A DNA stretch of 64,000 nt from a virus. Under the pieces are notes generated by a model. That model ran no database searches, was not told the origin of the DNA, and was given only the letters and a program-made list of their open reading frames with translations. Position numbers and translations under genes: made by a program. The stretch is from UHGV virus genome UHGV-0248979; one strand, written 5' to 3'. This document shows, piece after piece, positions 1,629 to 56,750 of this stretch. Every line of letters starts with the position of its first letter. The first letter of the stretch is position 1.

Positions 1629-1673
1629 AAAAGAAAAAAAAAACAGAGAAAGGGAGAACCCGAAGGTTCTCCC
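1629..1673 (-). terminator. rho-independent terminator
   Basis: GGGAGAACC-CGAA-GGTTCTCCC hairpin followed on minus strand by T10 tract, downstream of gene 1679..2287. Confidence 0.6.
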
Positions 1674-7068: not shown

Positions 7069-8220
7069 TTAGAGGTCAGCAACAAACAACAGCTGGCAGC
7101 CGTACTTTTGTACGTCCGCCCAACCGTAGTCTTTTCCGATTATAGGTAGATGTAAAAAATCCAGCTTCTCGTCTTTCGCTTTTAGTTTCGCCATTAACGT
7201 ATTGGACTCCTCAGCACTGAGCAGTAATGCGGGCTCTTTTTCAGTACGTCCTTCTGCGGTTGGGAAGAAATTGTAATAGCTGCGAGTAGGTAAATCGACA
7301 GAAAAACTACGATTGCCTATTCTGGCGATGAACGCAACTCCTTCACAGTTAGCATCTACACTACACGACCATCCCGCCTCCGTTAAAAGGTCTTTTAACA
7401 GACACCACACTTTAAGTTGGTTCTTAGAAACTGTACGGTAAATAGCAAGATGTTCAGGAAGTAAATGTACGCCCATAACCACGTTTTCAGATTTCTCGTC
7501 AAGCAACTCTGGATGCTGTATCGGGAACAATAATTCAGTGATACCCACGTTATCAATTTTGTTAACAAAATCAGTTAATTCATCTTTTAAGGTACACACG
7601 GATTTTTCTCCTTTGTCTTCAATAATCAGGTGGGGTTCGCCGCTAATTAAAATGTGGTAAACGAGATCGTCAGTAGAACGGTAAGTGAGCTTGATTGCTT
7701 TATCACTTAATATTTCGTAGCGGAAGAAACTTTCGTACCAACTTGAGCCGAAATCGTTTTGTGTGAGTTCCTGCTCAACTTTGATGGTTTTTGCTTCAAA
7801 GCCGATTAACTCGCTTAATAACGCGAGTTCTTGTTTAGTTAAAATAGTTACACCGTGAAAGGGCACTTGTTCAAGCTGAAAACATAACTTAGTGACTTCA
7901 CCATTTGGGAAGACCTTAAACATAATCTTCCGGTTGCTACTCTTTTCCCTAACAACAAGTTTACGGTAATTTAGTCCACAATTTGTGTAAGACGTGAACT
8001 GGTAACCTTCAATTTCTTCATCGAAAGTACAGACATCGACAGGCGCGATAATCTCATTGTATTCACTAAGTACACAGCAGCCCAATTTATAACCAAACAA
8101 CGTATGTTGTAAAAAATAGTCGAGGGTTAAGCTTGGTAGTGGCCAAGCCCGATTATAGCATCTGTCCATCAGTTCTTTTAGGTACTTGGCATGTCTTGGT
8201 TTAGAAATAATATTTCGCAT
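7069..8220 (-). CDS. hypothetical protein, tandem paralog family
   Basis: C-terminus YGWADVQKYGCQLLFVADL. Confidence 0.55.
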   Translation of the reverse strand: MRNIISKPRHAKYLKELMDRCYNRAWPLPSLTLDYFLQHTLFGYKLGCCVLSEYNEIIAPVDVCTFDEEIEGYQFTSYTNCGLNYRKLVVREKSSNRKIMFKVFPNGEVTKLCFQLEQVPFHGVTILTKQELALLSELIGFEAKTIKVEQELTQNDFGSSWYESFFRYEILSDKAIKLTYRSTDDLVYHILISGEPHLIIEDKGEKSVCTLKDELTDFVNKIDNVGITELLFPIQHPELLDEKSENVVMGVHLLPEHLAIYRTVSKNQLKVWCLLKDLLTEAGWSCSVDANCEGVAFIARIGNRSFSVDLPTRSYYNFFPTAEGRTEKEPALLLSAEESNTLMAKLKAKDEKLDFLHLPIIGKDYGWADVQKYGCQLLFVADL

Positions 8221-8252
8221 TTTTACTCTCCTTTAGGGGGTTTTTTCGTTAC

Positions 8253-8807
8253 TTAAGCAGGGCAAGCTAAGAACAACAACTGCTGACCGATTTTACGTAC
8301 GGTATACCAACCGTGGGCTTTAGCGACCGCGATCAACGTTTCCCAGTCATCAACATCACATTGCTCGTTCCGAAGTTTTGTAAAGAGTGCTTCGGCTTCG
8401 TCTTGGTTTAATAACTTACCTGGATTATCAGGGGTGGTGCCAGAAGGGGTTGGAAAGAAATCGTATTGACGCGCTAAGAGAAAATCAACCAGATACTTGG
8501 TGTTCTCTTTATAAACCAGCGTGGAAGTCTTCCCTTCGTGGAAGAAGCTGCCTGTTTTCCAAACGCTATCTTTCAGTAAGCTCTGAAGGTAATCTGTAAA
8601 GCCCGTTCTAAATGGGATATGCGTTTTACGCGTGATGTTGCGACGCAGCGGGGTTTCCTCTACAGCTTGTACACTTACCCCTACTATCATCGCACCTGGC
8701 TGGATAATGGTATTGGTCAGTACGGTATAAGGACGGACAAAGAAATGTTCGCCTACGCCTTTTTCAAGGGTTTGGATAATTTCATTTTTCAGTTCAGTTT
8801 GAAACAT
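8253..8807 (-). CDS. hypothetical protein, tandem paralog family
   Basis: C-terminus HGWYTVRKIGQQLLFLA. Confidence 0.55.
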   Translation of the reverse strand: MFQTELKNEIIQTLEKGVGEHFFVRPYTVLTNTIIQPGAMIVGVSVQAVEETPLRRNITRKTHIPFRTGFTDYLQSLLKDSVWKTGSFFHEGKTSTLVYKENTKYLVDFLLARQYDFFPTPSGTTPDNPGKLLNQDEAEALFTKLRNEQCDVDDWETLIAVAKAHGWYTVRKIGQQLLFLACPA

Positions 8808-8838
8808 GGTATATTCTCCTTTTTTTCGGTTTTCTTAA

Positions 8839-9576
8839 TTACGCGGTTTTAATTAACAGCAGATAGTCCTTCGTAATCTCAGCACAACTCCACCCTCTCA
8901 TCGTGGCGATTTTACGAAGATCAATTTTCTCGTGATATTTCAATAAGGGATCGTCTGAGTTAATCTCAACCAGGTGGGTGGCTTTAGAAATCGTTTCCAC
9001 ATCTGGGATCTGTTTTGCTAAGTCGGATGCAATCAGTTCAATAACGCGGTAACCCTTTAACACAGAAACATAGATGCGCAAACCATATAGCGTGCCCTCG
9101 TCTTCTAATGGACAAAGATCGATGCCGGGTCCAAGCAGTGATAACTCGACGTTATCGGGAAGGTTTTCTGCATTTCGGAGTAACCCTATCCCATTTCTAA
9201 ACAGAGGGAAGTAAGAGAATAGTGGTGGTAAAGCCCAACCGTTCCCAATAAGCACATCATCGATACTAGTAGGCGTGTTCGCAAGAAGACGAATGTGGTC
9301 AGCCACAACTTCAAGTTCGGCATCACTGATCAACTTATAGATTAACATGACACTGGTTTCGGTATTAATAACGAAGAAGACGCGGTTGGCGTAACTGCCT
9401 ATCACGTATTCGTCAATCATACAGTCGATAACGTCAGTGTCTGGATAATCTTCAGGTTTAATTGTTCCAGCATCGATTAACTTAGCAGGTTGCGATTGTT
9501 TTAATAGTTCGTTAACAACAGTAGAAGAAAGTTCTAAACTGGTGTTAGTAAAGATATCGTCTAATAATTCTCTCAT
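8839..9576 (-). CDS. hypothetical protein, tandem paralog family
   Basis: N-terminus MRELLDDIF and C-terminus RGWSCAEITKDYLLLI resemble neighbours. Confidence 0.5.
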   Translation of the reverse strand: MRELLDDIFTNTSLELSSTVVNELLKQSQPAKLIDAGTIKPEDYPDTDVIDCMIDEYVIGSYANRVFFVINTETSVMLIYKLISDAELEVVADHIRLLANTPTSIDDVLIGNGWALPPLFSYFPLFRNGIGLLRNAENLPDNVELSLLGPGIDLCPLEDEGTLYGLRIYVSVLKGYRVIELIASDLAKQIPDVETISKATHLVEINSDDPLLKYHEKIDLRKIATMRGWSCAEITKDYLLLIKTA

Positions 9577-11380: not shown

Positions 11381-11437
11381 AAAAAAAAACGTGCTACTCC
11401 TACCCTCTAAGAGGGTAGGAGGTTACTTTATTTTTTT
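11381..11437. terminator. bidirectional rho-independent terminator
   Basis: CTCCTACCCTC-TAA-GAGGGTAGGAG hairpin with A9 upstream and T7 downstream; sits between convergent genes. Confidence 0.65.
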
Positions 11438-27798: not shown

Positions 27799-27808
27799 TT
27801 TAATTACA

Positions 27809-27854
27809 GGAGGAACTATGTTTATGGACGTAGTCCTCCATTCTTTTTTATTTT
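27809..27854 (+). terminator. putative rho-independent terminator
   Basis: GGAGGA...TCCTCC stem followed by ATTCTTTTTTATTTT. Confidence 0.45.
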
Positions 27855-27865
27855 AAGGATACGTG

Positions 27866-28258
27866 ATGGCGATCAGTGTTAAAAATGTGCGTGACCGAAT
27901 CACCAACGTAGAGAACCAAATGGCAACTGGCCCACGTGTTGATCCGCAAGTTGCGTCGAAAGCACATAACGCTGCTGATTCATTTTCAGGTTGGACACCC
28001 GGTCGATTAGATTGTGGAGGTAGCTGTAGCTGGACATGCTCAAACGGTTGTACGCATGGTTGTACGAGTTGTTCAGGTACATGTACATCGGTGTGCGTAG
28101 GAAGCTGTTCCTCTGCGTGTGGTAATCAATGCAGTGGTTGTAGCGGAACGTGTTCGGGTGGTTGTTCAGGATGTAGTGGGACTTGTAGTGGGGGATGTGC
28201 TGGACGTTGTTCCTCGGGGTGTAGTGGTTCTTGTGCAGGTGGTTGTTCTAACCCATAA
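27866..28258 (+). CDS. Cys/Ser/Gly-rich repeat protein 1 (putative radical SAM substrate, RiPP-precursor-like)
   Basis: About 50-aa N-terminal region with KNVRDRI motif, then core starting CGGSCSWTCS with roughly 25 Cys in Cx2C/Cx3C spacing; AAGGA RBS. Confidence 0.55.
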   Translation: MAISVKNVRDRITNVENQMATGPRVDPQVASKAHNAADSFSGWTPGRLDCGGSCSWTCSNGCTHGCTSCSGTCTSVCVGSCSSACGNQCSGCSGTCSGGCSGCSGTCSGGCAGRCSSGCSGSCAGGCSNP

Positions 28259-28277
28259 AAAATAAGGATCAATTCGA

Positions 28278-29192
28278 ATGGAAGAACTTACTAGACCGAC
28301 GGTATCCGATAAGCTTTACAGTAATCCGAGAACGTTAAACGTGATTACAACATCCAAATGTAATCTGGACTGTAGCTTCTGCGGCGGAGCCTATTACATG
28401 CATAGAGAGGATACAACCGCAGAAGTACAAAAGGAAAGTATTATCGAGGCGCTGGAAAATAACCCGACTATCACAAATATCCAATGGTCAGGGGGCGAAC
28501 CATTACTTGCCACGCGTAAAATTGATACCCTTATAGAAGAGATAAGGGAGAAGTATCCTCGTTGCGAACATTACCTGTATACCAATGGTTTAAAAATGCG
28601 TAAATCGCATCTACCGTTGTTAAAGGGTTTTGATAGTATCTTTTTTAGCATGGATGGATTCAAAGAATCAGAGCGTCCGTTCATGCGGATTATCGAAGAA
28701 AAACAATACGAGGTTTTGGAGACAATTTACGAATTGAAAAATATTCGTACTTGGGCGGTTTTGACACGCGAGCGTATTGGGGATAAACGTTGGTACGAAG
28801 ATATAATTGCGTTACATAACCACATTTACCATTATGGTTTTTGTGAGATGTCGCTGGTTTTGGACAAAAACATGCCAAAACCGTTATCTCCCGATCACGT
28901 TATGAACTTTATTTACGGGTATTTTAGAATTCAGGAGAATATAGAAAGACTGAATTCGTCCAATCGAAGTGAATGTGCGTTTACGCTAAATGCGTTATTT
29001 GATGAACCCTGTAACACATGTAGTCGTTGTTTTCGCATTGAGTCTGACGGTGCCCAGAACCAAGTAAAGAACGTTGAAATCGTAACGCAACACGGCTGTA
29101 GTGACTTGGCCAGAAAGGTTGGATTAGATGCTTACGACTATATACGTCGTGTGGTAGGGGCTAAGAATAGAGTCTCAGAAAAACTACGATAA
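28278..29192 (+). CDS. radical SAM enzyme 1
   Basis: CNLDCSFC (Cx3Cx2C) radical SAM cluster motif, GGEPLL SAM-binding motif, C-terminal CNTCSRC cysteines. Confidence 0.7.
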   Translation: MEELTRPTVSDKLYSNPRTLNVITTSKCNLDCSFCGGAYYMHREDTTAEVQKESIIEALENNPTITNIQWSGGEPLLATRKIDTLIEEIREKYPRCEHYLYTNGLKMRKSHLPLLKGFDSIFFSMDGFKESERPFMRIIEEKQYEVLETIYELKNIRTWAVLTRERIGDKRWYEDIIALHNHIYHYGFCEMSLVLDKNMPKPLSPDHVMNFIYGYFRIQENIERLNSSNRSECAFTLNALFDEPCNTCSRCFRIESDGAQNQVKNVEIVTQHGCSDLARKVGLDAYDYIRRVVGAKNRVSEKLR

Positions 29193-29250
29193 TTTTACAG
29201 AAAGTGAATTATAATGTGTCCTAGGGGGCACTAAACCAGTAGGTATTAAA

Positions 29251-29649
29251 ATGGCGATTGGTTTATCTTCTTTAAAGGCCCGGCTAGATAACATAGACTC
29301 TACTGCATTAAAAAATACAGGTGCGGTGCAGAACTATATTCGTGGTAAAGCCACTAATAATAGCGATCTGTTTGGAGGACAGCCGAGAAATCACTATGAC
29401 TGTGGGGGTAGCTGTAGCTGGACGTGCTCAAGTTGTTCGGGCGGCTGTACCGGCAACGCCTCCGGCGGCTGCGGTTCTTCCTGTTCAGCGAACTGTGTTT
29501 CAGGATGTAGTACAGGTTGCACAGGTTGTAGCAGTACCTGCTCAGGAGGGTGCACAGGTAATTGCTCGGGCGGTTGTTCAAGTAGTTGCACCGGAACATG
29601 TTCAGGTTCATGTCGAGGCGGATGTCAGCAATCGTGTACTGGAAGATAA
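29251..29649 (+). CDS. Cys/Ser/Gly-rich repeat protein 2 (putative radical SAM substrate)
   Basis: Core starts DCGGSCSWTCS like protein 1; leader with LKARLDNI motif. Confidence 0.55.
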   Translation: MAIGLSSLKARLDNIDSTALKNTGAVQNYIRGKATNNSDLFGGQPRNHYDCGGSCSWTCSSCSGGCTGNASGGCGSSCSANCVSGCSTGCTGCSSTCSGGCTGNCSGGCSSSCTGTCSGSCRGGCQQSCTGR

Positions 29650-29652
29650 GAA

Positions 29653-30319
29653 ATGATAAGTCTTAAAAACATACGCGACAGATTAGTAACGGCGGAGGGA
29701 TATATCACCACCGCTAATGCAAACAACTATATTGCAAACCAAGGAACGGTTTCCTCAACCAACAATCTCGCAGGATTACCTTTAAGTCATTATAATTGTA
29801 ATGGCGGATGTAGTTGGTCGTGCAGCGGTAGCTGTAGTAAGGGGGCGGGGGGGGGTAAGTAAGCCCTCTAGCGGTGGTTCTACGCCAACCCCTTCAAGAC
29901 CAACCTACGACAACAAAGCCGTTGTTTATGTTGAGTCTAAGCTACACGCTAAAGATACTGTTCGTATCAATTTCTCTACTGGGGCTGTCTTTATTCAATG
30001 CGTAACGTTAACCGGTAGAGAGAAACCGATAAGGGTCTTTAAATCGTTACTGTCTGGAAAGTCCTACGCCTACCCTCAAGTTGCAATGGGTAATGGTATC
30101 ACTGTTAATTTTACAGACGCGGCTAGTTTTAAGATAGACTCTATCGGTAATGCATCTTCTGCTTCTATCTCATTAGAAGTATTAAGTAATTCCGGCGGAA
30201 GCATGGCGATTAAGCAGCAACCGAGTAAATCAAACGGCTTTACTGCAGAATTTGAAGTTACCGGCAGGCAATGGCGTGGCGGGTTCTATACCTTGAACGT
30301 CAGATTGACCGTAAAATAA
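29653..30319 (+). CDS. Cys-motif protein 3 with C-terminal domain, reading frame interrupted at a G9 tract
   Basis: ORF 29653..29862 (leader KNIRDRL, core NCNGGCSWSCSGSCS) stops 2 codons after G9 tract 29847..29855; the +1 frame continues to 30319 without its own plausible start; one fewer G fuses them. Confidence 0.4.
29847..29855 (+). repeat. G9 homopolymer tract (preceded by GGGGGC)
   Basis: Direct read of sequence; coincides with frame break. Confidence 0.9.
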
Positions 30320-30331
30320 TTGGAGTAATCA

Positions 30332-31219
30332 ATGAAAAACGATTTGCATTTAGCCTATAAAACAATTTTCAACCACCCACTTCATATTTCTTCCCCCGAT
30401 TCAATACGCGCTCATTTGGAAGATAAAGTTCGTTTGTTAACCCAGTTACCTGGCGAATGGCCCAAAGTGCGTGGTCGTTTTTTTACCGATCGCAATAACT
30501 ATTCAGTAGAAAACACTTTTAAAATACGCGATCTGACAGCAGAAAGCGTAGTGGTGTTTACCGGTGATTCAGATTTACGCGGTAAATTGGTTGACGGTAA
30601 ATATTTCTTTAGTGACGGTATTCTGAATAATTCTGTAGATTTGGAATTGTTCTTTACGCCATTTAAAGAGTTGAATGCGAAGCCTGTAGCACGACGTTGG
30701 TGGTCTCCAGACTATCTTGGTTCATTCCCGTACTTTTATGCCCTGGTTCCTGTAGAAACAAAAAACTATGTTGATACTGAACCGTATATTGAAATAGAAG
30801 GTTACGAGGAACTTGGCATCAACTGTTTAGCAGATCTGATGGCGTACAGTTACAAATTTATGTGGGATCGTGAACGTTCAGTATGGGTTGCCCTTACAGA
30901 TGAACATGAAATCACAAAACGTATTCGTAAACCATGGATGCAGCATTTAATTCAAACACGTATTGGTGAACATCCGTCATCGGAAGCAGATTTAGCGAAA
31001 CTTGTTAGTTTCTTAATGACGAAAGTCACGTTAACTGATGAAGAAAAAGCGGCAGTGTCGGCGGTATTGGAACGTAACGTAACGTTAGCGGATCTAGAAC
31101 GTTTAAACGTGCGTTATAAAGACCTTAATCGTATTATTGAGGCTTACAATTCACCGTTTGTATTAAAACCTGGAGTTAACGCTTACGACGATCCTTTGTT
31201 ATCCATTGGCTATATTTAA
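30332..31219 (+). CDS. hypothetical protein (295 aa) within radical SAM cluster
   Basis: GGAG RBS 7 nt upstream; no recognisable motif. Confidence 0.55.
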   Translation: MKNDLHLAYKTIFNHPLHISSPDSIRAHLEDKVRLLTQLPGEWPKVRGRFFTDRNNYSVENTFKIRDLTAESVVVFTGDSDLRGKLVDGKYFFSDGILNNSVDLELFFTPFKELNAKPVARRWWSPDYLGSFPYFYALVPVETKNYVDTEPYIEIEGYEELGINCLADLMAYSYKFMWDRERSVWVALTDEHEITKRIRKPWMQHLIQTRIGEHPSSEADLAKLVSFLMTKVTLTDEEKAAVSAVLERNVTLADLERLNVRYKDLNRIIEAYNSPFVLKPGVNAYDDPLLSIGYI

Positions 31220-31226
31220 AAAATAG

Positions 31227-32165
31227 ATGGACTCACCTGCAATGACAACCGACGTAGAGCCAAGGTTATCGAATCGTTTATACAATAAACCCACCGTATT
31301 GTCCGTAGTTGCTACATCCAAATGTAATCTGGACTGTAGCTTCTGCGGCGGAGCCTATTACATGCATCGTGAAGATTCTCCGCGAGAGTTTCAACGTGAA
31401 CGAATTTTGAAAGCGTTGGCGTCTAACCCAACCATTACTGAAATTCAGTGGACTGGCGGTGAACCGCTACTGGCAACTCGAAAGATTGAGGCGTTTGTCG
31501 ACGAATTAAAAACGATCCGTCCTGAACTCAAACACCAGATGTTCACGAACGGTTTAAAAATGCGTAAATCGCATCTACCGTTGTTAAAACAATTCGATGG
31601 TATATATGTTAGCATCGATGGGTTTAATCTTTCTGAACGGCCTTTTAAGCGCTTTATTGATGATAATTGTCATGAAGCGTTAGAAGTAATTTACAGCTTG
31701 AATAATGTTAACACCTGGGCTGTTGTTACGAGGGAGAATTTATCCAATAAAAGATGGCATGAAGATATCATTCAATTACATACTGCTATCTATCATTACG
31801 GTTTTCGTTCCATGTCCTTATTACTAGATAAAAACATGCCAAAACCGTTATCTCCCGATCACGTTATGAACTTTATTTACGGGTATTTTAGAATTCAGGA
31901 GAATATAGAAAGATTAAACGTTCTAAATTCTAGAGACTGCGGTTTTATTGTAAACAGATTCTTCGATCATGCTTGTAATGTCTGTAGCGAAAGTCTCAGG
32001 ATAGACGCGGACGGGGAAGAAAACCAACTTAAAAATGTACCAATAACTACAAAAGCAGGGTGTAACCAACTAGCCTCCTCAATAGGTGTAGAAGCTTACG
32101 AGTACATTCGTCGTGTAGTGATGGCAGAGCGTAATAGAGGGGCGGAAAATGAGTCAAGAAAATAG
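31227..32165 (+). CDS. radical SAM enzyme 2 (paralog of enzyme 1)
   Basis: CNLDCSFCGG motif; three blocks of identical nucleotide sequence shared with 28278..29192. Confidence 0.7.
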   Translation: MDSPAMTTDVEPRLSNRLYNKPTVLSVVATSKCNLDCSFCGGAYYMHREDSPREFQRERILKALASNPTITEIQWTGGEPLLATRKIEAFVDELKTIRPELKHQMFTNGLKMRKSHLPLLKQFDGIYVSIDGFNLSERPFKRFIDDNCHEALEVIYSLNNVNTWAVVTRENLSNKRWHEDIIQLHTAIYHYGFRSMSLLLDKNMPKPLSPDHVMNFIYGYFRIQENIERLNVLNSRDCGFIVNRFFDHACNVCSESLRIDADGEENQLKNVPITTKAGCNQLASSIGVEAYEYIRRVVMAERNRGAENESRK

Positions 32166-33471
32166 TTATCCTAAACAACTGACTTATCAAATTGTTACAA
32201 ATTTATCGTGTAACTTGGACTGTGAGTATTGTTACGAACGTAAGTATCCCCGTAATAACAAAGCGGCGGATATTGTTGATTTTCTACACGCTTGTTTTGA
32301 ACGAGATAAAGATCTGACAAACATCGAGGTCGTTATCGATATCATCGGTGGTGAGCCGTTTATTCAGCCTAAACTATTAAAGGCGGCATTTGAAACCGCA
32401 GAAGAGTTATGCGAAAAACATAATCGGCCGTTTATGTTTAGCATCTCTACTAACGGAACGTTGTTAGATAGACCTTTGAATAGAGAAATTATTGAACGTT
32501 GGAAAGACAGGCTGTCTATCGGCGTGTCTATTGATGGATTGCCCGAATCGCACGATAAGTACCGGATTTTTACAACAACTCGTGAAGGATCTTACGAGGC
32601 CGCTGTGCGGGGCTATAACTACTTAAAAGAAGTCGGTATTGCAGAACTTGGTGTAAAAGCGACCTTTACGTTGGAAACGTTACCGTTCTATGCTGCTGGA
32701 ATGAAATCATTAATTGATATTACTGGCGGCGGAACTATTTCTGGCAACGTAACCTTCGAAGACATTATGCCACGGAGCATGGCTACTTCAATCGCATTGC
32801 AGATGATGGACGTGGTAGATTATTGGGTTGAGAAGGGCTTACACACCAACCCACGTAACACTTTGTCGCACATCATTCCAGACGGGTTAGATTTTGATAC
32901 TATCTGGGAACCAAACTGGCGTGATCAGTTATTGTATAACGATACTGTACGTTTGAATCCAGAACGTTTACGCCCGTTCTGCGGTACGTTAACACACATG
33001 ACCTGCTTAGGATTTGATCGTAAGATCTTCGGTTGTAACCGTTTCATGTCAACCGTAACATCACGTTCTGCCGTATTTGAATTAGTTGGGCGGGAATTCG
33101 TTAGCTTAGATGACGGGAAATTGCTGGAAGAGATTCAGACGCAATACACCAACTATCCTGAAACCTGTTTAGGTTGTCCAATGAAGCACGCTTGTGGTAG
33201 TTGTGCGGCTGCATCTTACGAGAATGGAGAAGGGACGCTAGAAGATCGCAAAGCTTATCACGCTGAACGCCGTCAATGCGGCTGGACAACTGCAAAGTTG
33301 ATGGTTGCGGAATATTGGAAACAGAAAATGGGCACGACGTCAGTGAAAGATTTTCATGACAATAGCATGTGTTATTGCCCTCGTTGCGTACGTGAACGTA
33401 CCCAGAAAGAAAAACAATTGAGAGAAACCAAAGATGAAGCCAATTCTGATCCACAATATTACGAAGCGTAA
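32149..33471 (+). CDS. radical SAM enzyme 3 with C-terminal SPASM-like Cys-rich domain
   Basis: CNLDCEYC motif, GGEP motif, C-terminal CLGCPMKHACGSC and further Cys pairs resembling SPASM/twitch auxiliary cluster domain. Confidence 0.7.
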   Translation: MSQENSYPKQLTYQIVTNLSCNLDCEYCYERKYPRNNKAADIVDFLHACFERDKDLTNIEVVIDIIGGEPFIQPKLLKAAFETAEELCEKHNRPFMFSISTNGTLLDRPLNREIIERWKDRLSIGVSIDGLPESHDKYRIFTTTREGSYEAAVRGYNYLKEVGIAELGVKATFTLETLPFYAAGMKSLIDITGGGTISGNVTFEDIMPRSMATSIALQMMDVVDYWVEKGLHTNPRNTLSHIIPDGLDFDTIWEPNWRDQLLYNDTVRLNPERLRPFCGTLTHMTCLGFDRKIFGCNRFMSTVTSRSAVFELVGREFVSLDDGKLLEEIQTQYTNYPETCLGCPMKHACGSCAAASYENGEGTLEDRKAYHAERRQCGWTTAKLMVAEYWKQKMGTTSVKDFHDNSMCYCPRCVRERTQKEKQLRETKDEANSDPQYYEA

Positions 33472-35290: not shown

Positions 35291-35320
35291 ATCGGGGGAG
35301 GTTACCACCCCCCCCCGAAT
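35291..35320 (-). terminator. putative hairpin/terminator containing C9 tract
   Basis: TCGGGGG...CCCCCGA pairing around a 9-nt homopolymer, followed on minus strand by TATTTCTTT. Confidence 0.3.
35308..35316. repeat. C9 homopolymer tract (intergenic)
   Basis: Direct read. Confidence 0.9.
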
Positions 35321-50090: not shown

Positions 50091-50100
50091 CCCCCCCCCC
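50091..50100. repeat. C10 homopolymer tract (intergenic)
   Basis: Direct read. Confidence 0.9.
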
Positions 50101-50134: not shown

Positions 50135-50642
50135 TTAGCTAATTCTCAAATCACGCAGTGCGCCTGTCGATTTCATCACGTTTTGGAACGCAGCGCTGAT
50201 GTTATTAGTCCAGTAATAATGCTGTCCGTTAATAACCTGCTGATAGGCCAGCGCGCAGGTGTTACCACCTAAATTTACGGTAATGTTAGAGGCTCTGCCT
50301 CCTTGTAAGTAAACCGCTAAAGTAGGCTTTGCGTTGGCAACTATCGTCGTTAACTGTAACTCAATACCTACTAAAGTTCCCACCCCGCAGTTACCCGCGT
50401 TTTGAATGGTTCCCTGATTTTTCTGGTTTAACGGCCAGCTTGGTCCTACTGCGCCCCATTTCTTACCTAAAGAATCGCTATATGCAGCGGTTGCAATTTT
50501 ACAGCCCATAGATCGTCCCACCATTTGACTCATCATAAAAGGTCTACCCAATCCTAATTTACTACCAGCAGCGCTCATCCATTGTTCGCCCGTTTCGTTC
50601 TTGGCCGAAGAACCGACCCACGAACCGGTTACCCCCCCCCAT
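50135..50642 (-). CDS. family C small protein, N-terminus interrupted by G9 tract
   Basis: ORF track gives 50135..50578; upstream frame encodes GVTGSWVGSSAKNETGEQW matching paralog 50896..51441 N-terminus, but ATG at 50642 is out of frame across C9 tract 50632..50640. Confidence 0.45.
50632..50640. repeat. C9 homopolymer tract (G9 in gene sense) immediately after a start codon
   Basis: Direct read; paralog has G5 at the equivalent position. Confidence 0.9.
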
Positions 50643-56703: not shown

Positions 56704-56750
56704 CAAAAAAAAAATAAAAAACATCTACCGCCCATAGAATCGGGCGGTAG
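56704..56750 (-). terminator. rho-independent terminator
   Basis: CTACCGCCC-ATAGAAT-CGGGCGGTAG hairpin plus T-tract on minus strand. Confidence 0.6.

What the first reader, a model, noticed from the sequence alone, without database searches (positions are those of the whole stretch)
29653..30319. G9 homopolymer splits the third Cys-motif gene from a 150-aa C-terminal domain
The ORF stops two codons after GGGGGCGGGGGGGGG (G9 at 29847-29855). The +1 frame continues for about 150 codons with no credible start of its own. Removing one G gives a single roughly 220-aa protein with a Cys-motif N-terminal module fused to a downstream domain. This could be homopolymer sequencing error, slipped-strand phase variation or programmed frameshifting.
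Basis: seen in the sequence. Interest (0 to 1): 0.6.

Follow-up and report, generated by a model that had tools for sequence, protein, structure and literature searches.

The report
Poly-G switch in a jumbo-phage gene
A run of nine G's in a giant gut phage decides, by its length, whether a small cysteine-motif peptide is made alone or fused to a 154-residue extra domain; near-identical phages carry 9, 10 or 11 G's, so it is a real, length-variable genetic switch of a kind already known in a few other phages.

Summary
G9 lies at 29847-29855. The 69-aa ORF (29653-29862) stops two codons later, and 154 further codons run in the +1 frame to 30319 without a usable start.

It is not a one-off sequencing error. 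Contigs 99.1-99.9% identical to the window carry G9 (69-aa ORF), G10 (68-aa ORF), GGGGAGGGGG (68 aa) or G11. A sister lineage has the fusion locked in frame by an interrupted tract.

The downstream domain is under purifying selection (dN/dS 0.09-0.19, no indels or stops). It has been deleted independently in lineages where the tract was broken out of frame. Both non-fusion frames stop at once (TAAGTAA), which leaves the same roughly 68-aa peptide that SPN3US encodes on its own.

A second G9, at the start of a gp38-like tail-fibre adhesin gene (50632-50640, minus strand), behaves the same way.

Best reading: a hypermutable poly-G contingency locus in a Seoulvirus-like jumbo phage. It toggles a CXXX-repeat-type peptide, a likely radical-SAM target, between a short form and a domain-bearing form. 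It is a new member of a known kind (Campylobacter Fletchervirus poly-G tracts). RNA-level slippage as an added or main route is not excluded.

The parts
29653..29862 (+). Short form: 69-aa third paralogue of the CXXX-repeat (phrog_6085) family. It has a leader-like N-terminus, the core CNGGCSWSCSGSCS and a KGAGGGK tail.
   Evidence: phrog_6085, E 1.4e-24. SPN3US and many relatives encode only a 68-69-aa version.
29847..29855 (+). G9 homopolymer, the length-variable switch. G8 or G11 gives the fusion; G9 or G10 gives the short peptide.
   Evidence: G9, G10, G11 and GGGGAGGGGG occur in contigs 99.1-99.9% identical to the window.
29856..29862 (+). TAAGTAA: two staggered stop codons that close both non-fusion frames immediately after the tract.
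   Evidence: Read from the sequence. The same design is seen in relatives: TAAATAA in L007 and TAAGTGA in L020.
29855..30319 (+). Type-A C-terminal domain: 154 codons plus stop in the +1 frame. It is predicted all-beta, has no start of its own, and is expressed only when fused.
   Evidence: dN/dS 0.09-0.19, no indels or stops in four lineages; AF2 shows 11 strands at pLDDT 44; near-orphan.
27863..28258 (+). CXXX-repeat paralogue 1 (131 aa).
   Evidence: TIGR04114, 20.1 bits against a cut-off of 20; phrog_6085.
29251..29649 (+). CXXX-repeat paralogue 2 (132 aa).
   Evidence: (TIGR04114, 22.3 bits).
28278..29192 (+). Radical SAM enzyme 1 (304 aa).
30332..31219 (+). Conserved 295-aa gene (phrog_8030) directly downstream. 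It served as the anchor for comparing junction states across contigs.
31227..32165 (+). Radical SAM enzyme 2 (312 aa).
32149..33471 (+). Radical SAM/SPASM-type peptide maturase (440 aa). Its best match is the CXXX-repeat-target maturase family.
   Evidence: TIGR04115, 118.7 bits, below the 350 cut-off; PapB-like, 115 bits.
50632..50640 (-). Second contingency tract: ATG plus G8 (G9 in all) at the 5' end of a gp38-like tail-fibre adhesin gene. The window is in the OFF state.

Best explanation
The G9 tract is a hypermutable homopolymer, that is, a contingency locus. It sits at the junction between a conserved N-terminal module and a swappable C-terminal beta-rich domain.

The N-terminal module is the third paralogue of a CXXX-repeat family, which I infer to be a radical-SAM target. 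Slipped-strand mispairing during phage DNA replication changes the tract length. At 3k+2 G's (G8, G11) one protein of 221-222 aa is made. At G9 or G10 translation ends at one of two staggered TAA codons just after the tract. That yields a 68-69-aa peptide equivalent to the stand-alone peptide of SPN3US. The switch is therefore between a short and a long form of the protein, not between on and null.

The locus lies next to the baseplate/fibre paralogues (SPN3US gp167-170). The same phage has a second poly-G switch in a tail-fibre adhesin gene. From this I infer that the long form displays a host- or environment-interacting domain on the virion in a subpopulation.

Shown: tract polymorphism, natural fusions, purifying selection on the domain, and absence of an independent start. 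Inferred: DNA slippage as the mechanism, virion location, and the role of the domain.
For: 1. Near-identical contigs share the identical 295-aa neighbour gene and are 99.1-99.9% identical over 3.9 kb. Among 21 of them, about 10 carry G9, about 7 G10, 3 GGGGAGGGGG and 1 G11. The G11 contig (L074) encodes the 222-aa fusion.
2. In-frame type-A fusions of 221-222 aa also occur in two more diverged lineages (P0020, P0021, P0041, P0042, P0044).
3. Lineage L005/L006 has the tract interrupted (GGC GGA GGG GGA GGG). It is locked in frame to a different C-domain (P0004, 226 aa, about 30 contigs). L007 has G11 in frame with a third domain type.
4. The domain has dN/dS 0.09-0.19 while pS runs from 0.18 to saturation. 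It is 154 codons in every lineage, with no stops.
5. Where the tract is broken out of frame (GGGGGGAAGG), the domain has been deleted, with different end points in L008/L011, L010 and L022.
6. There is no start codon with a ribosome-binding site, no promoter and no terminator between the two parts.
7. A G6 tract in the same contigs never varies, whereas tracts of G8 or longer do.
8. The second tract (50632-50640) switches a Gp38_N/phrog_1121 adhesin on in 8 and off in 16 of 24 contigs.
9. There is precedent: Fletchervirus poly-G tracts of 7-11 G in receptor-binding proteins, and contingency loci in T2 and T4, both as described in PMC12633550.
Against: The in-frame state is rare for type A, about 1 of 21 near-identical contigs and about 5 contigs against well over 100 OFF-type ORF calls in the cluster lists. 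That is far below the one-third expected if frames were neutral, yet the domain is strongly conserved. This pattern fits equally well a model in which OFF genotypes supply the long form by RNA-level slippage.

All data are consensus assemblies. No read-level heterogeneity or reversibility was seen. Samples from one study are not independent. The function and virion location of either form are untested. SPN3US proteomics papers do not mention these gene products, which are unannotated.
Confidence: 0.62

Rival explanations
1. Programmed recoding. The genomic default is an out-of-frame tract (G9 or G10). A fixed minor fraction of long protein is made by transcriptional slippage of the RNA polymerase on the G-run, or by ribosomal +1 frameshifting at G9 or -1 at G10 on G GGG GGG. 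This would parallel lambda G/GT, T7 10A/10B, Listeria phage PSA, and Ig-like domains added by frameshift. DNA-level length variation would then be a by-product.
For: OFF genotypes dominate strongly while the domain shows dN/dS 0.09-0.19. Both OFF frames end cleanly, giving a defined short product identical in design to the stand-alone SPN3US peptide. G9 needs only +1 and G10 only -1. A Shine-Dalgarno-like AAGGAG or AGGGGG lies just 5' of the tract, as in prfB (the prfB comparison rests on my own knowledge).
Against: Both OFF frames and the ON frame occur, so no single frame is conserved. My earlier impression that the tract was always n+1 was refuted. The Shine-Dalgarno-like bases simply encode the conserved Gly-Ala-Gly, which is also present in SPN3US without any tract. 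There is no conserved stimulatory RNA structure: the local hairpin has z -0.6 and is absent in L007. Locked in-frame fusions are common in the type-B lineage, so a 100% long form is viable. The second tract in the same phage, placed right after an ATG, behaves as a plain ON/OFF switch with ON at about one third.
Confidence: 0.25
2. Homopolymer sequencing or assembly error. The true sequence is in frame (G8 or G11) and the gene is an ordinary 221-222-aa gene.
For: Long G-runs are error-prone. The window has a second tract that is also one G out of frame. In-frame versions exist in other assemblies.
Against: The same G9 state is found in at least 10 independent near-identical assemblies. It also appears in diverged lineages from different studies and pipelines (L014, L004, L002/L003 with GCA+G11, and P0028 in 19 contigs). 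A substitution variant, GGGGAGGGGG, recurs in 3 contigs. Lineages with a broken tract have lost the domain, which shows the OFF state is biologically real. Consensus calling from deep coverage would not flip systematically.
Confidence: 0.05
3. Two separate genes. The downstream ORF is translated on its own from ATG 29801 or by re-initiation after the TAA.
For: Gene callers report a 172-aa ORF from ATG 29801 in many assemblies.
Against: ATG 29801 has no Shine-Dalgarno sequence. It arises from the Asn-Gly codons and is missing in relatives that use AAC. There is no ATG, GTG or TTG near the stop in that frame; the next is at 30086, which would cut the conserved domain in half. Natural in-frame fusions, one of them with a locked tract, show the fused protein is the product.
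Confidence: 0.03

Closest known systems
Poly-G tracts in receptor-binding protein genes of Campylobacter Fletchervirus phages (Sorensen et al. 2021, Cell Rep 35:109214, as described in PMC12633550)
   Same: Tracts of 7-11 G inside tail-fibre or host-recognition genes of a lytic myovirus. Length changes shift the frame and create phenotypically mixed progeny. Several tracts occur per genome.
   Different: This is a different phage group (a roughly 225-kb Seoulvirus-like jumbo phage of Enterobacteriaceae, 44% G+C) and a different gene. The tract sits at a domain junction, so the OFF state still gives a complete small peptide with stand-alone homologues. The N-module belongs to a CXXX-repeat family that I infer to be a radical-SAM target. 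ON is rare in sampled genomes.
Contingency loci of T2 and T4 (Gomez, Barrick and Waters 2025 preprint, PMC12633550); poly-G tracts in BPP-1 and PB1-like phages cited there
   Same: Homopolymer slippage gives reversible frameshifts and population heterogeneity in phages.
   Different: Those loci are mostly short A/T or mixed repeats of 6 bases or more in genes of many classes, and were tested experimentally. Here the evidence is comparative only.
Programmed frameshift C-terminal extensions of phage structural proteins (lambda G/GT, T7 10A/10B, Listeria phage PSA +1 shifts, Ig-like domains added by frameshift); from my own knowledge
   Same: Short and long forms share an N-terminus. The extra C-terminal beta-rich domain is made only after a frame change. 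The setting is a structural gene.
   Different: Those use fixed slippery heptamers or specific +1 sites, with the frame conserved across relatives. Here the tract length itself varies among near-identical genomes and all three frames occur.
CXXX-repeat peptide and radical SAM maturase system (NCBIfam TIGR04114 and TIGR04115)
   Same: Cys-every-fourth-residue repeat proteins are encoded beside radical SAM/SPASM-type enzymes.
   Different: The enzyme scores 118.7 bits against a cut-off of 350. The gene studied here has only four Cys and does not itself hit TIGR04114. The context is a phage baseplate/fibre module. No chemistry is known.

Membership tests
Phage poly-G contingency (phase-variable) locus | Homopolymer tract inside or at the 5' end of a coding region, long enough to slip (about 7 or more) | tested here: met
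   G9 at 29847-29855 lies within the coding sequence. Such tracts are 70-fold above chance.
Phage poly-G contingency (phase-variable) locus | Tract length differs among otherwise near-identical genomes and changes the reading frame | tested here: met
   G9, G10, G11 and an interrupted variant occur in contigs 99.1-99.9% identical. ORF products are 69, 68 and 222 aa.
Phage poly-G contingency (phase-variable) locus | The switched coding sequence is functional, that is, maintained by selection | tested here: met
   dN/dS 0.09-0.19 with no indels or stops. The domain is lost where the tract is broken.
Phage poly-G contingency (phase-variable) locus | High-rate, reversible switching within a clonal population, with a phenotypic consequence | not testable with these tools
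   This needs read pile-ups, passage experiments and host-range or adsorption assays.
Programmed ribosomal frameshift or transcriptional slippage site | Fixed genomic frame relation conserved across relatives | tested here: not met
   All three frames are seen among near-identical genomes. In-frame locked versions exist.
Programmed ribosomal frameshift or transcriptional slippage site | Conserved stimulatory element (downstream structure or a purposeful upstream Shine-Dalgarno sequence) | tested here: inconclusive
   The local hairpin has z -0.6 and is absent in L007. The Shine-Dalgarno-like bases are explained by the conserved Gly-Ala-Gly codons.
Programmed ribosomal frameshift or transcriptional slippage site | Two products made from one genotype | not testable with these tools
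   This needs proteomics or RNA sequencing of a clone with a fixed tract length.
CXXX-repeat radical-SAM target system (TIGR04114 / TIGR04115) | Target protein reaches the TIGR04114 cut-off | tested here: not met
   Paralogues 1 and 2 score 20.1 and 22.3 bits against a cut-off of 20. The gene in question has no hit and joins them only through phrog_6085.
CXXX-repeat radical-SAM target system (TIGR04114 / TIGR04115) | Adjacent maturase reaches the TIGR04115 cut-off | tested here: not met
   It is the best hit, but at 118.7 bits against a cut-off of 350. The enzyme is related, not a curated member.

The most novel reading that the evidence does not exclude
The tract may be a recoding device rather than a simple genetic switch. 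Out-of-frame G9 or G10 would be the selected genomic state. Slippage on the G-run, by the jumbo phage's own non-canonical RNA polymerase or by the ribosome, would set a low fixed ratio of long to short protein. A peptide module cross-linked by radical SAM enzymes would then act as a universal anchor that carries interchangeable host-interaction domains (types A, B, C) into the baseplate/fibre apparatus. That would be a post-translationally modified, RiPP-like structural element in a virion.
Probability: 0.15. Interest if true: 0.8.

Novelty: new member of a known kind. Interest (0 to 1): 0.55.

Why it matters
Phage contingency loci are only now being recognised. The known cases are Campylobacter phages and the recent work on T2 and T4. 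This finding adds a widespread, uncultured, roughly 225-kb jumbo phage. It is found in gut metagenomes and in Salmonella, E. coli and Shigella isolate assemblies. It has at least two poly-G switches in its host-recognition region, so a single lysate could hold several virion types.

Two practical points follow. First, automatic annotation splits or misses these genes. Callers report 172-, 129-, 96- or 77-aa fragments, and in the SPN3US reference the whole CXXX-repeat gene family is unannotated or called in the wrong frame. Second, jumbo phages of this group are being proposed for Salmonella and E. coli control, where heritable host-range heterogeneity matters.

The link between a switchable domain and a peptide family that is probably modified by radical SAM enzymes, inside a virion module, is unexplored.

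Tried and rejected
1. My first comparison (window, L014, L002/3, L004, L020) showed every out-of-frame locus in the same n+1 frame. I considered a conserved +1 programmed frameshift with a prfB-like upstream Shine-Dalgarno sequence. Sampling near-identical contigs refuted this, because G10 (the other OFF frame) is about as common as G9.
2. Megablast of 27800-32200 and of 36000-60000 against cultured phages found no close relative. tblastn of fusion types A, B and C found only the N-module in cultured phages.
3. The genome-contig scan found nothing.
4. Pfam, PHROGs, NCBIfam and PDB sequence searches gave nothing for C-domain types A, B and C.
5. The exhaustive HMMER search found only 5 representatives, so the domain is a near-orphan.
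6. The AlphaFold model of the C-domain, built from 4 sequences, reached only pLDDT 44. I therefore ran no fold search.
7. RNA folding around the tract gave no significant or conserved structure.
9. Literature searches for the radical SAM/Cys-rich cluster in jumbo phages found nothing relevant.

Full report
**Observation**

GGGGGCGGGGGGGGG holds a G9 at 29847-29855. The ORF 29653-29862 (69 aa) ends ...CSWSCSGSCSKGAGGGK with GGT AAG TAA.

The +1 frame is open from 29783 to 30319. The 154 codons after the tract have no usable start. ATG 29801 lies inside the upstream gene, has no Shine-Dalgarno sequence and is simply the Asn-Gly codons AAT GG. The next in-frame start, at 30086, would halve the domain. 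Removing one G gives a 221-aa protein.

G9 tracts are about 70-fold commoner than in shuffled sequence: 4 tracts, 5 matches, against 0.07 expected. No promoter-like or terminator-like site on the + strand separates the two parts.

**Context**

The window comes from an uncultured relative of Salmonella jumbo phage SPN3US (Seoulvirus). The neighbouring 295-aa protein is 73% identical to its SPN3US homologue. No cultured phage gives a megablast match in this region.

- The large ORFs upstream correspond to SPN3US gp168-170, annotated as baseplate/tail-fibre candidates (PMC5105663, PMC5694885). The next ORF corresponds to gp167, a virion structural protein.
- Three paralogous Cys-motif genes follow (27863-28258, 29251-29649, 29653-29862), all in phrog_6085. 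They are interleaved with three radical SAM genes.
- Paralogues 1 and 2 just reach the NCBIfam 'Cys-rich repeat' model TIGR04114. The 440-aa enzyme has the CXXX-repeat-target maturase TIGR04115 as its best hit, but far below the cut-off.
- The cluster therefore resembles the CXXX-repeat/radical SAM system without being a curated member of it.

**What relatives show**

In SPN3US, Erwinia phage Asesino and many metagenomic relatives, the third paralogue is a 68-69-aa gene ending ...GAGNR or ...GAGGNK. It is followed directly by the 295-aa gene, with no tract and no extra domain.

Other relatives carry a domain of about 150 aa after the same module, in at least three unrelated or barely related types:

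- **Type A**, as in the window: L014, L002/L003 and L004.
- **Type B**: L005/L006 and L020.
- **Type C**: L007.

None of the three domains is found in any cultured phage, and none matches Pfam, PHROGs, NCBIfam or PDB sequences. Type A has only five hits among 1.84 billion representatives. A shallow AlphaFold model is all-beta but of low confidence.

**The fusion is a real protein**

- L005/L006 carry an interrupted tract (GGC GGA GGG GGA GGG) that reads straight through into domain B. This is P0004, 226 aa, present in about 30 contigs.
- L007 has G11 in frame with domain C (P0006, 210 aa).

**The tract is length-polymorphic**

I used the window's own 295-aa protein as an exact anchor and retrieved contigs 99.1-99.9% identical to the window over 3.9 kb. 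They fall into four states:

| Tract | Product | Contigs |
|---|---|---|
| G9 | 69-aa ORF | window, L070 plus 6 similar places, L075-L077 |
| G10 | 68-aa ORF ending GGG TAA | L068 plus 3, L071-L073 |
| GGGGAGGGGG | 68 aa | L069 plus 2 |
| G11 | 222-aa fusion | L074 |

The L074 fusion is 98% identical to the in-silico one. All three frames therefore occur among essentially the same phage in different samples.

This refuted my interim idea that the frame was always n+1 and hence a programmed +1 shift. It also rules out a private sequencing error in this window.

**The domain is maintained by selection, and its fate tracks the tract**

Across four type-A lineages the domain is always 154 codons, without stops. 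dN/dS is 0.09-0.19 while synonymous divergence runs from 0.18 to saturation.

In eight loci the tract is broken out of frame (GGGGGGAAGG, or GGGGGAGGCAGG in L022). These are L008, L010, L011, L015, L016, L019, L022 and L026. In those aligned, the domain has been deleted internally with different end points, leaving recognisable 5' and 3' remnants. An intact tract or an in-frame junction goes with an intact domain. A dead tract goes with decay.

**Design of the junction**

Every tract-bearing version is followed by two staggered stops (TAAGTAA, TAAATAA or TAAGTGA). Both non-fusion frames therefore end within two codons. This yields the same kind of 68-69-aa peptide that stands alone in SPN3US. 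The switch is short form versus long form, not on versus null.

**A second switch in the same window**

C9 at 50632-50640 is, on the coding (minus) strand, ATG followed by eight G's at the start of a gp38-like tail-fibre adhesin (Pfam Gp38_N, phrog_1121). In the window, the first 20-odd residues of that domain are out of frame.

Among 24 near-identical contigs:

- The tract is G8 or G11 in 8 contigs (168/169-aa protein, ON) and G9 or G10 in 16 contigs (OFF).
- A nearby intergenic tract varies from G9 to G11.
- A G6 tract never varies.

The tract states at the two loci combine independently across samples. Long G-runs in this phage are therefore generally unstable, and at least two of them gate host-recognition-region genes.

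**Mechanism**

The simplest account is slipped-strand mispairing at replication. That makes this a contingency locus, as described for the 7-11 G tracts in receptor-binding proteins of Campylobacter Fletchervirus phages and for T2 and T4 (PMC12633550). I put this at about 0.6.

The main reservation is that in-frame type-A genomes are rare. They make up about 1 in 21 of the near-identical contigs, and about 5 contigs against more than 100 OFF-type calls in the cluster lists. The adhesin switch, by contrast, sits at the neutral one third. Combined with strong purifying selection, this leaves room for RNA-level slippage on the G-run, transcriptional or ribosomal. G9 needs +1 and G10 needs -1, so out-of-frame genomes could supply a minor long form. 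I put this at about 0.25.

I found no conserved stimulatory structure. The Shine-Dalgarno-like bases upstream are explained by the conserved Gly-Ala-Gly codons. Sequencing error (0.05) and an independent downstream gene (0.03) are poorly supported.

**Function**

The function of the two forms is inferred, not shown. The inference rests on four points: the locus lies in the baseplate/fibre module, the C-domain is swapped as a cassette between otherwise syntenic relatives, the domain is predicted beta-rich, and the same phage has a switchable adhesin. Together these suggest that the long form exposes a host- or environment-binding domain, anchored through the Cys-motif module. The radical SAM chemistry on that module is unknown.

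**Verdict**

This is a genuine poly-G switch, a new member of a known kind. One open and more interesting possibility remains: recoding that sets a short-to-long ratio for a radical-SAM-modified structural peptide.

Noticed in passing
window 50632-50640 (-), gene 50135-50642 (-): A second poly-G switch. ATG plus G8 sits at the start of a gp38-like tail-fibre adhesin (Gp38_N, phrog_1121). The window is out of frame. In 24 near-identical contigs, G8 or G11 (ON, 168/169 aa) occurs in 8 and G9 or G10 (OFF) in 16.
   Followed up: yes
window 50091-50100 (-) and 35308-35316 (-): Intergenic G10 and G9 tracts form the 5' arm of hairpins (G-run, loop, CTCCCC). The one at 35308 is a strong terminator-like hairpin (z -2.78) followed by a U-rich tail. 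Lengths vary from G6 to G11 between relatives, whereas a G6 tract in the same contigs is invariant.
   Followed up: partly
L001 (SPN3US NC_027402.1) 8178-9207: The three CXXX-repeat family genes of SPN3US (8178-8570, 8581-8985, 9001-9207) are not annotated in the reference. The annotated gp100/SPN3US_0166 (8654-8989) is a shadow ORF in the wrong frame of the second gene. Gene callers likewise report shadow or fragment ORFs (172, 129, 96 and 77 aa) in many assemblies.
   Followed up: partly
window 27863-33471: A cluster of three CXXX-type Cys-repeat proteins and three radical SAM enzymes sits inside the baseplate/fibre module of a jumbo phage. SPN3US has two of the enzymes. I found no literature on it. 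Whether virion components are cross-linked by radical SAM chemistry is open.
   Followed up: partly
L008, L010, L011, L022 (junction to 295-aa gene): The type-A domain has been deleted internally and independently, with different end points. In every case the tract is interrupted and out of frame, which shows repeated loss of the switchable domain.
   Followed up: yes
P0071, P0072 (546-552 aa): The last 40 or so residues of the type-A domain (QQPSKSNGFTAEF...Y.L.V) weakly match a motif repeated four times in secreted bacterial proteins with no Pfam family. Type C shares the same C-terminal motif (32% identity over 56 aa).
   Followed up: partly
L049-L062, about position 2214: Prophage-like IMG/VR contigs from isolate genomes carry a tract of G6 to G10 about 560 nt downstream of a gp38-like adhesin gene. 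The tract lies inside a minus-strand ORF, and its length differs between contigs.
   Followed up: no
window 1634-1643, 11381-11389, 56705-56714: A10, A9 and A10 runs lie next to hairpin-forming sequences. From the local sequence context they look intergenic. I did not examine them.
   Followed up: no
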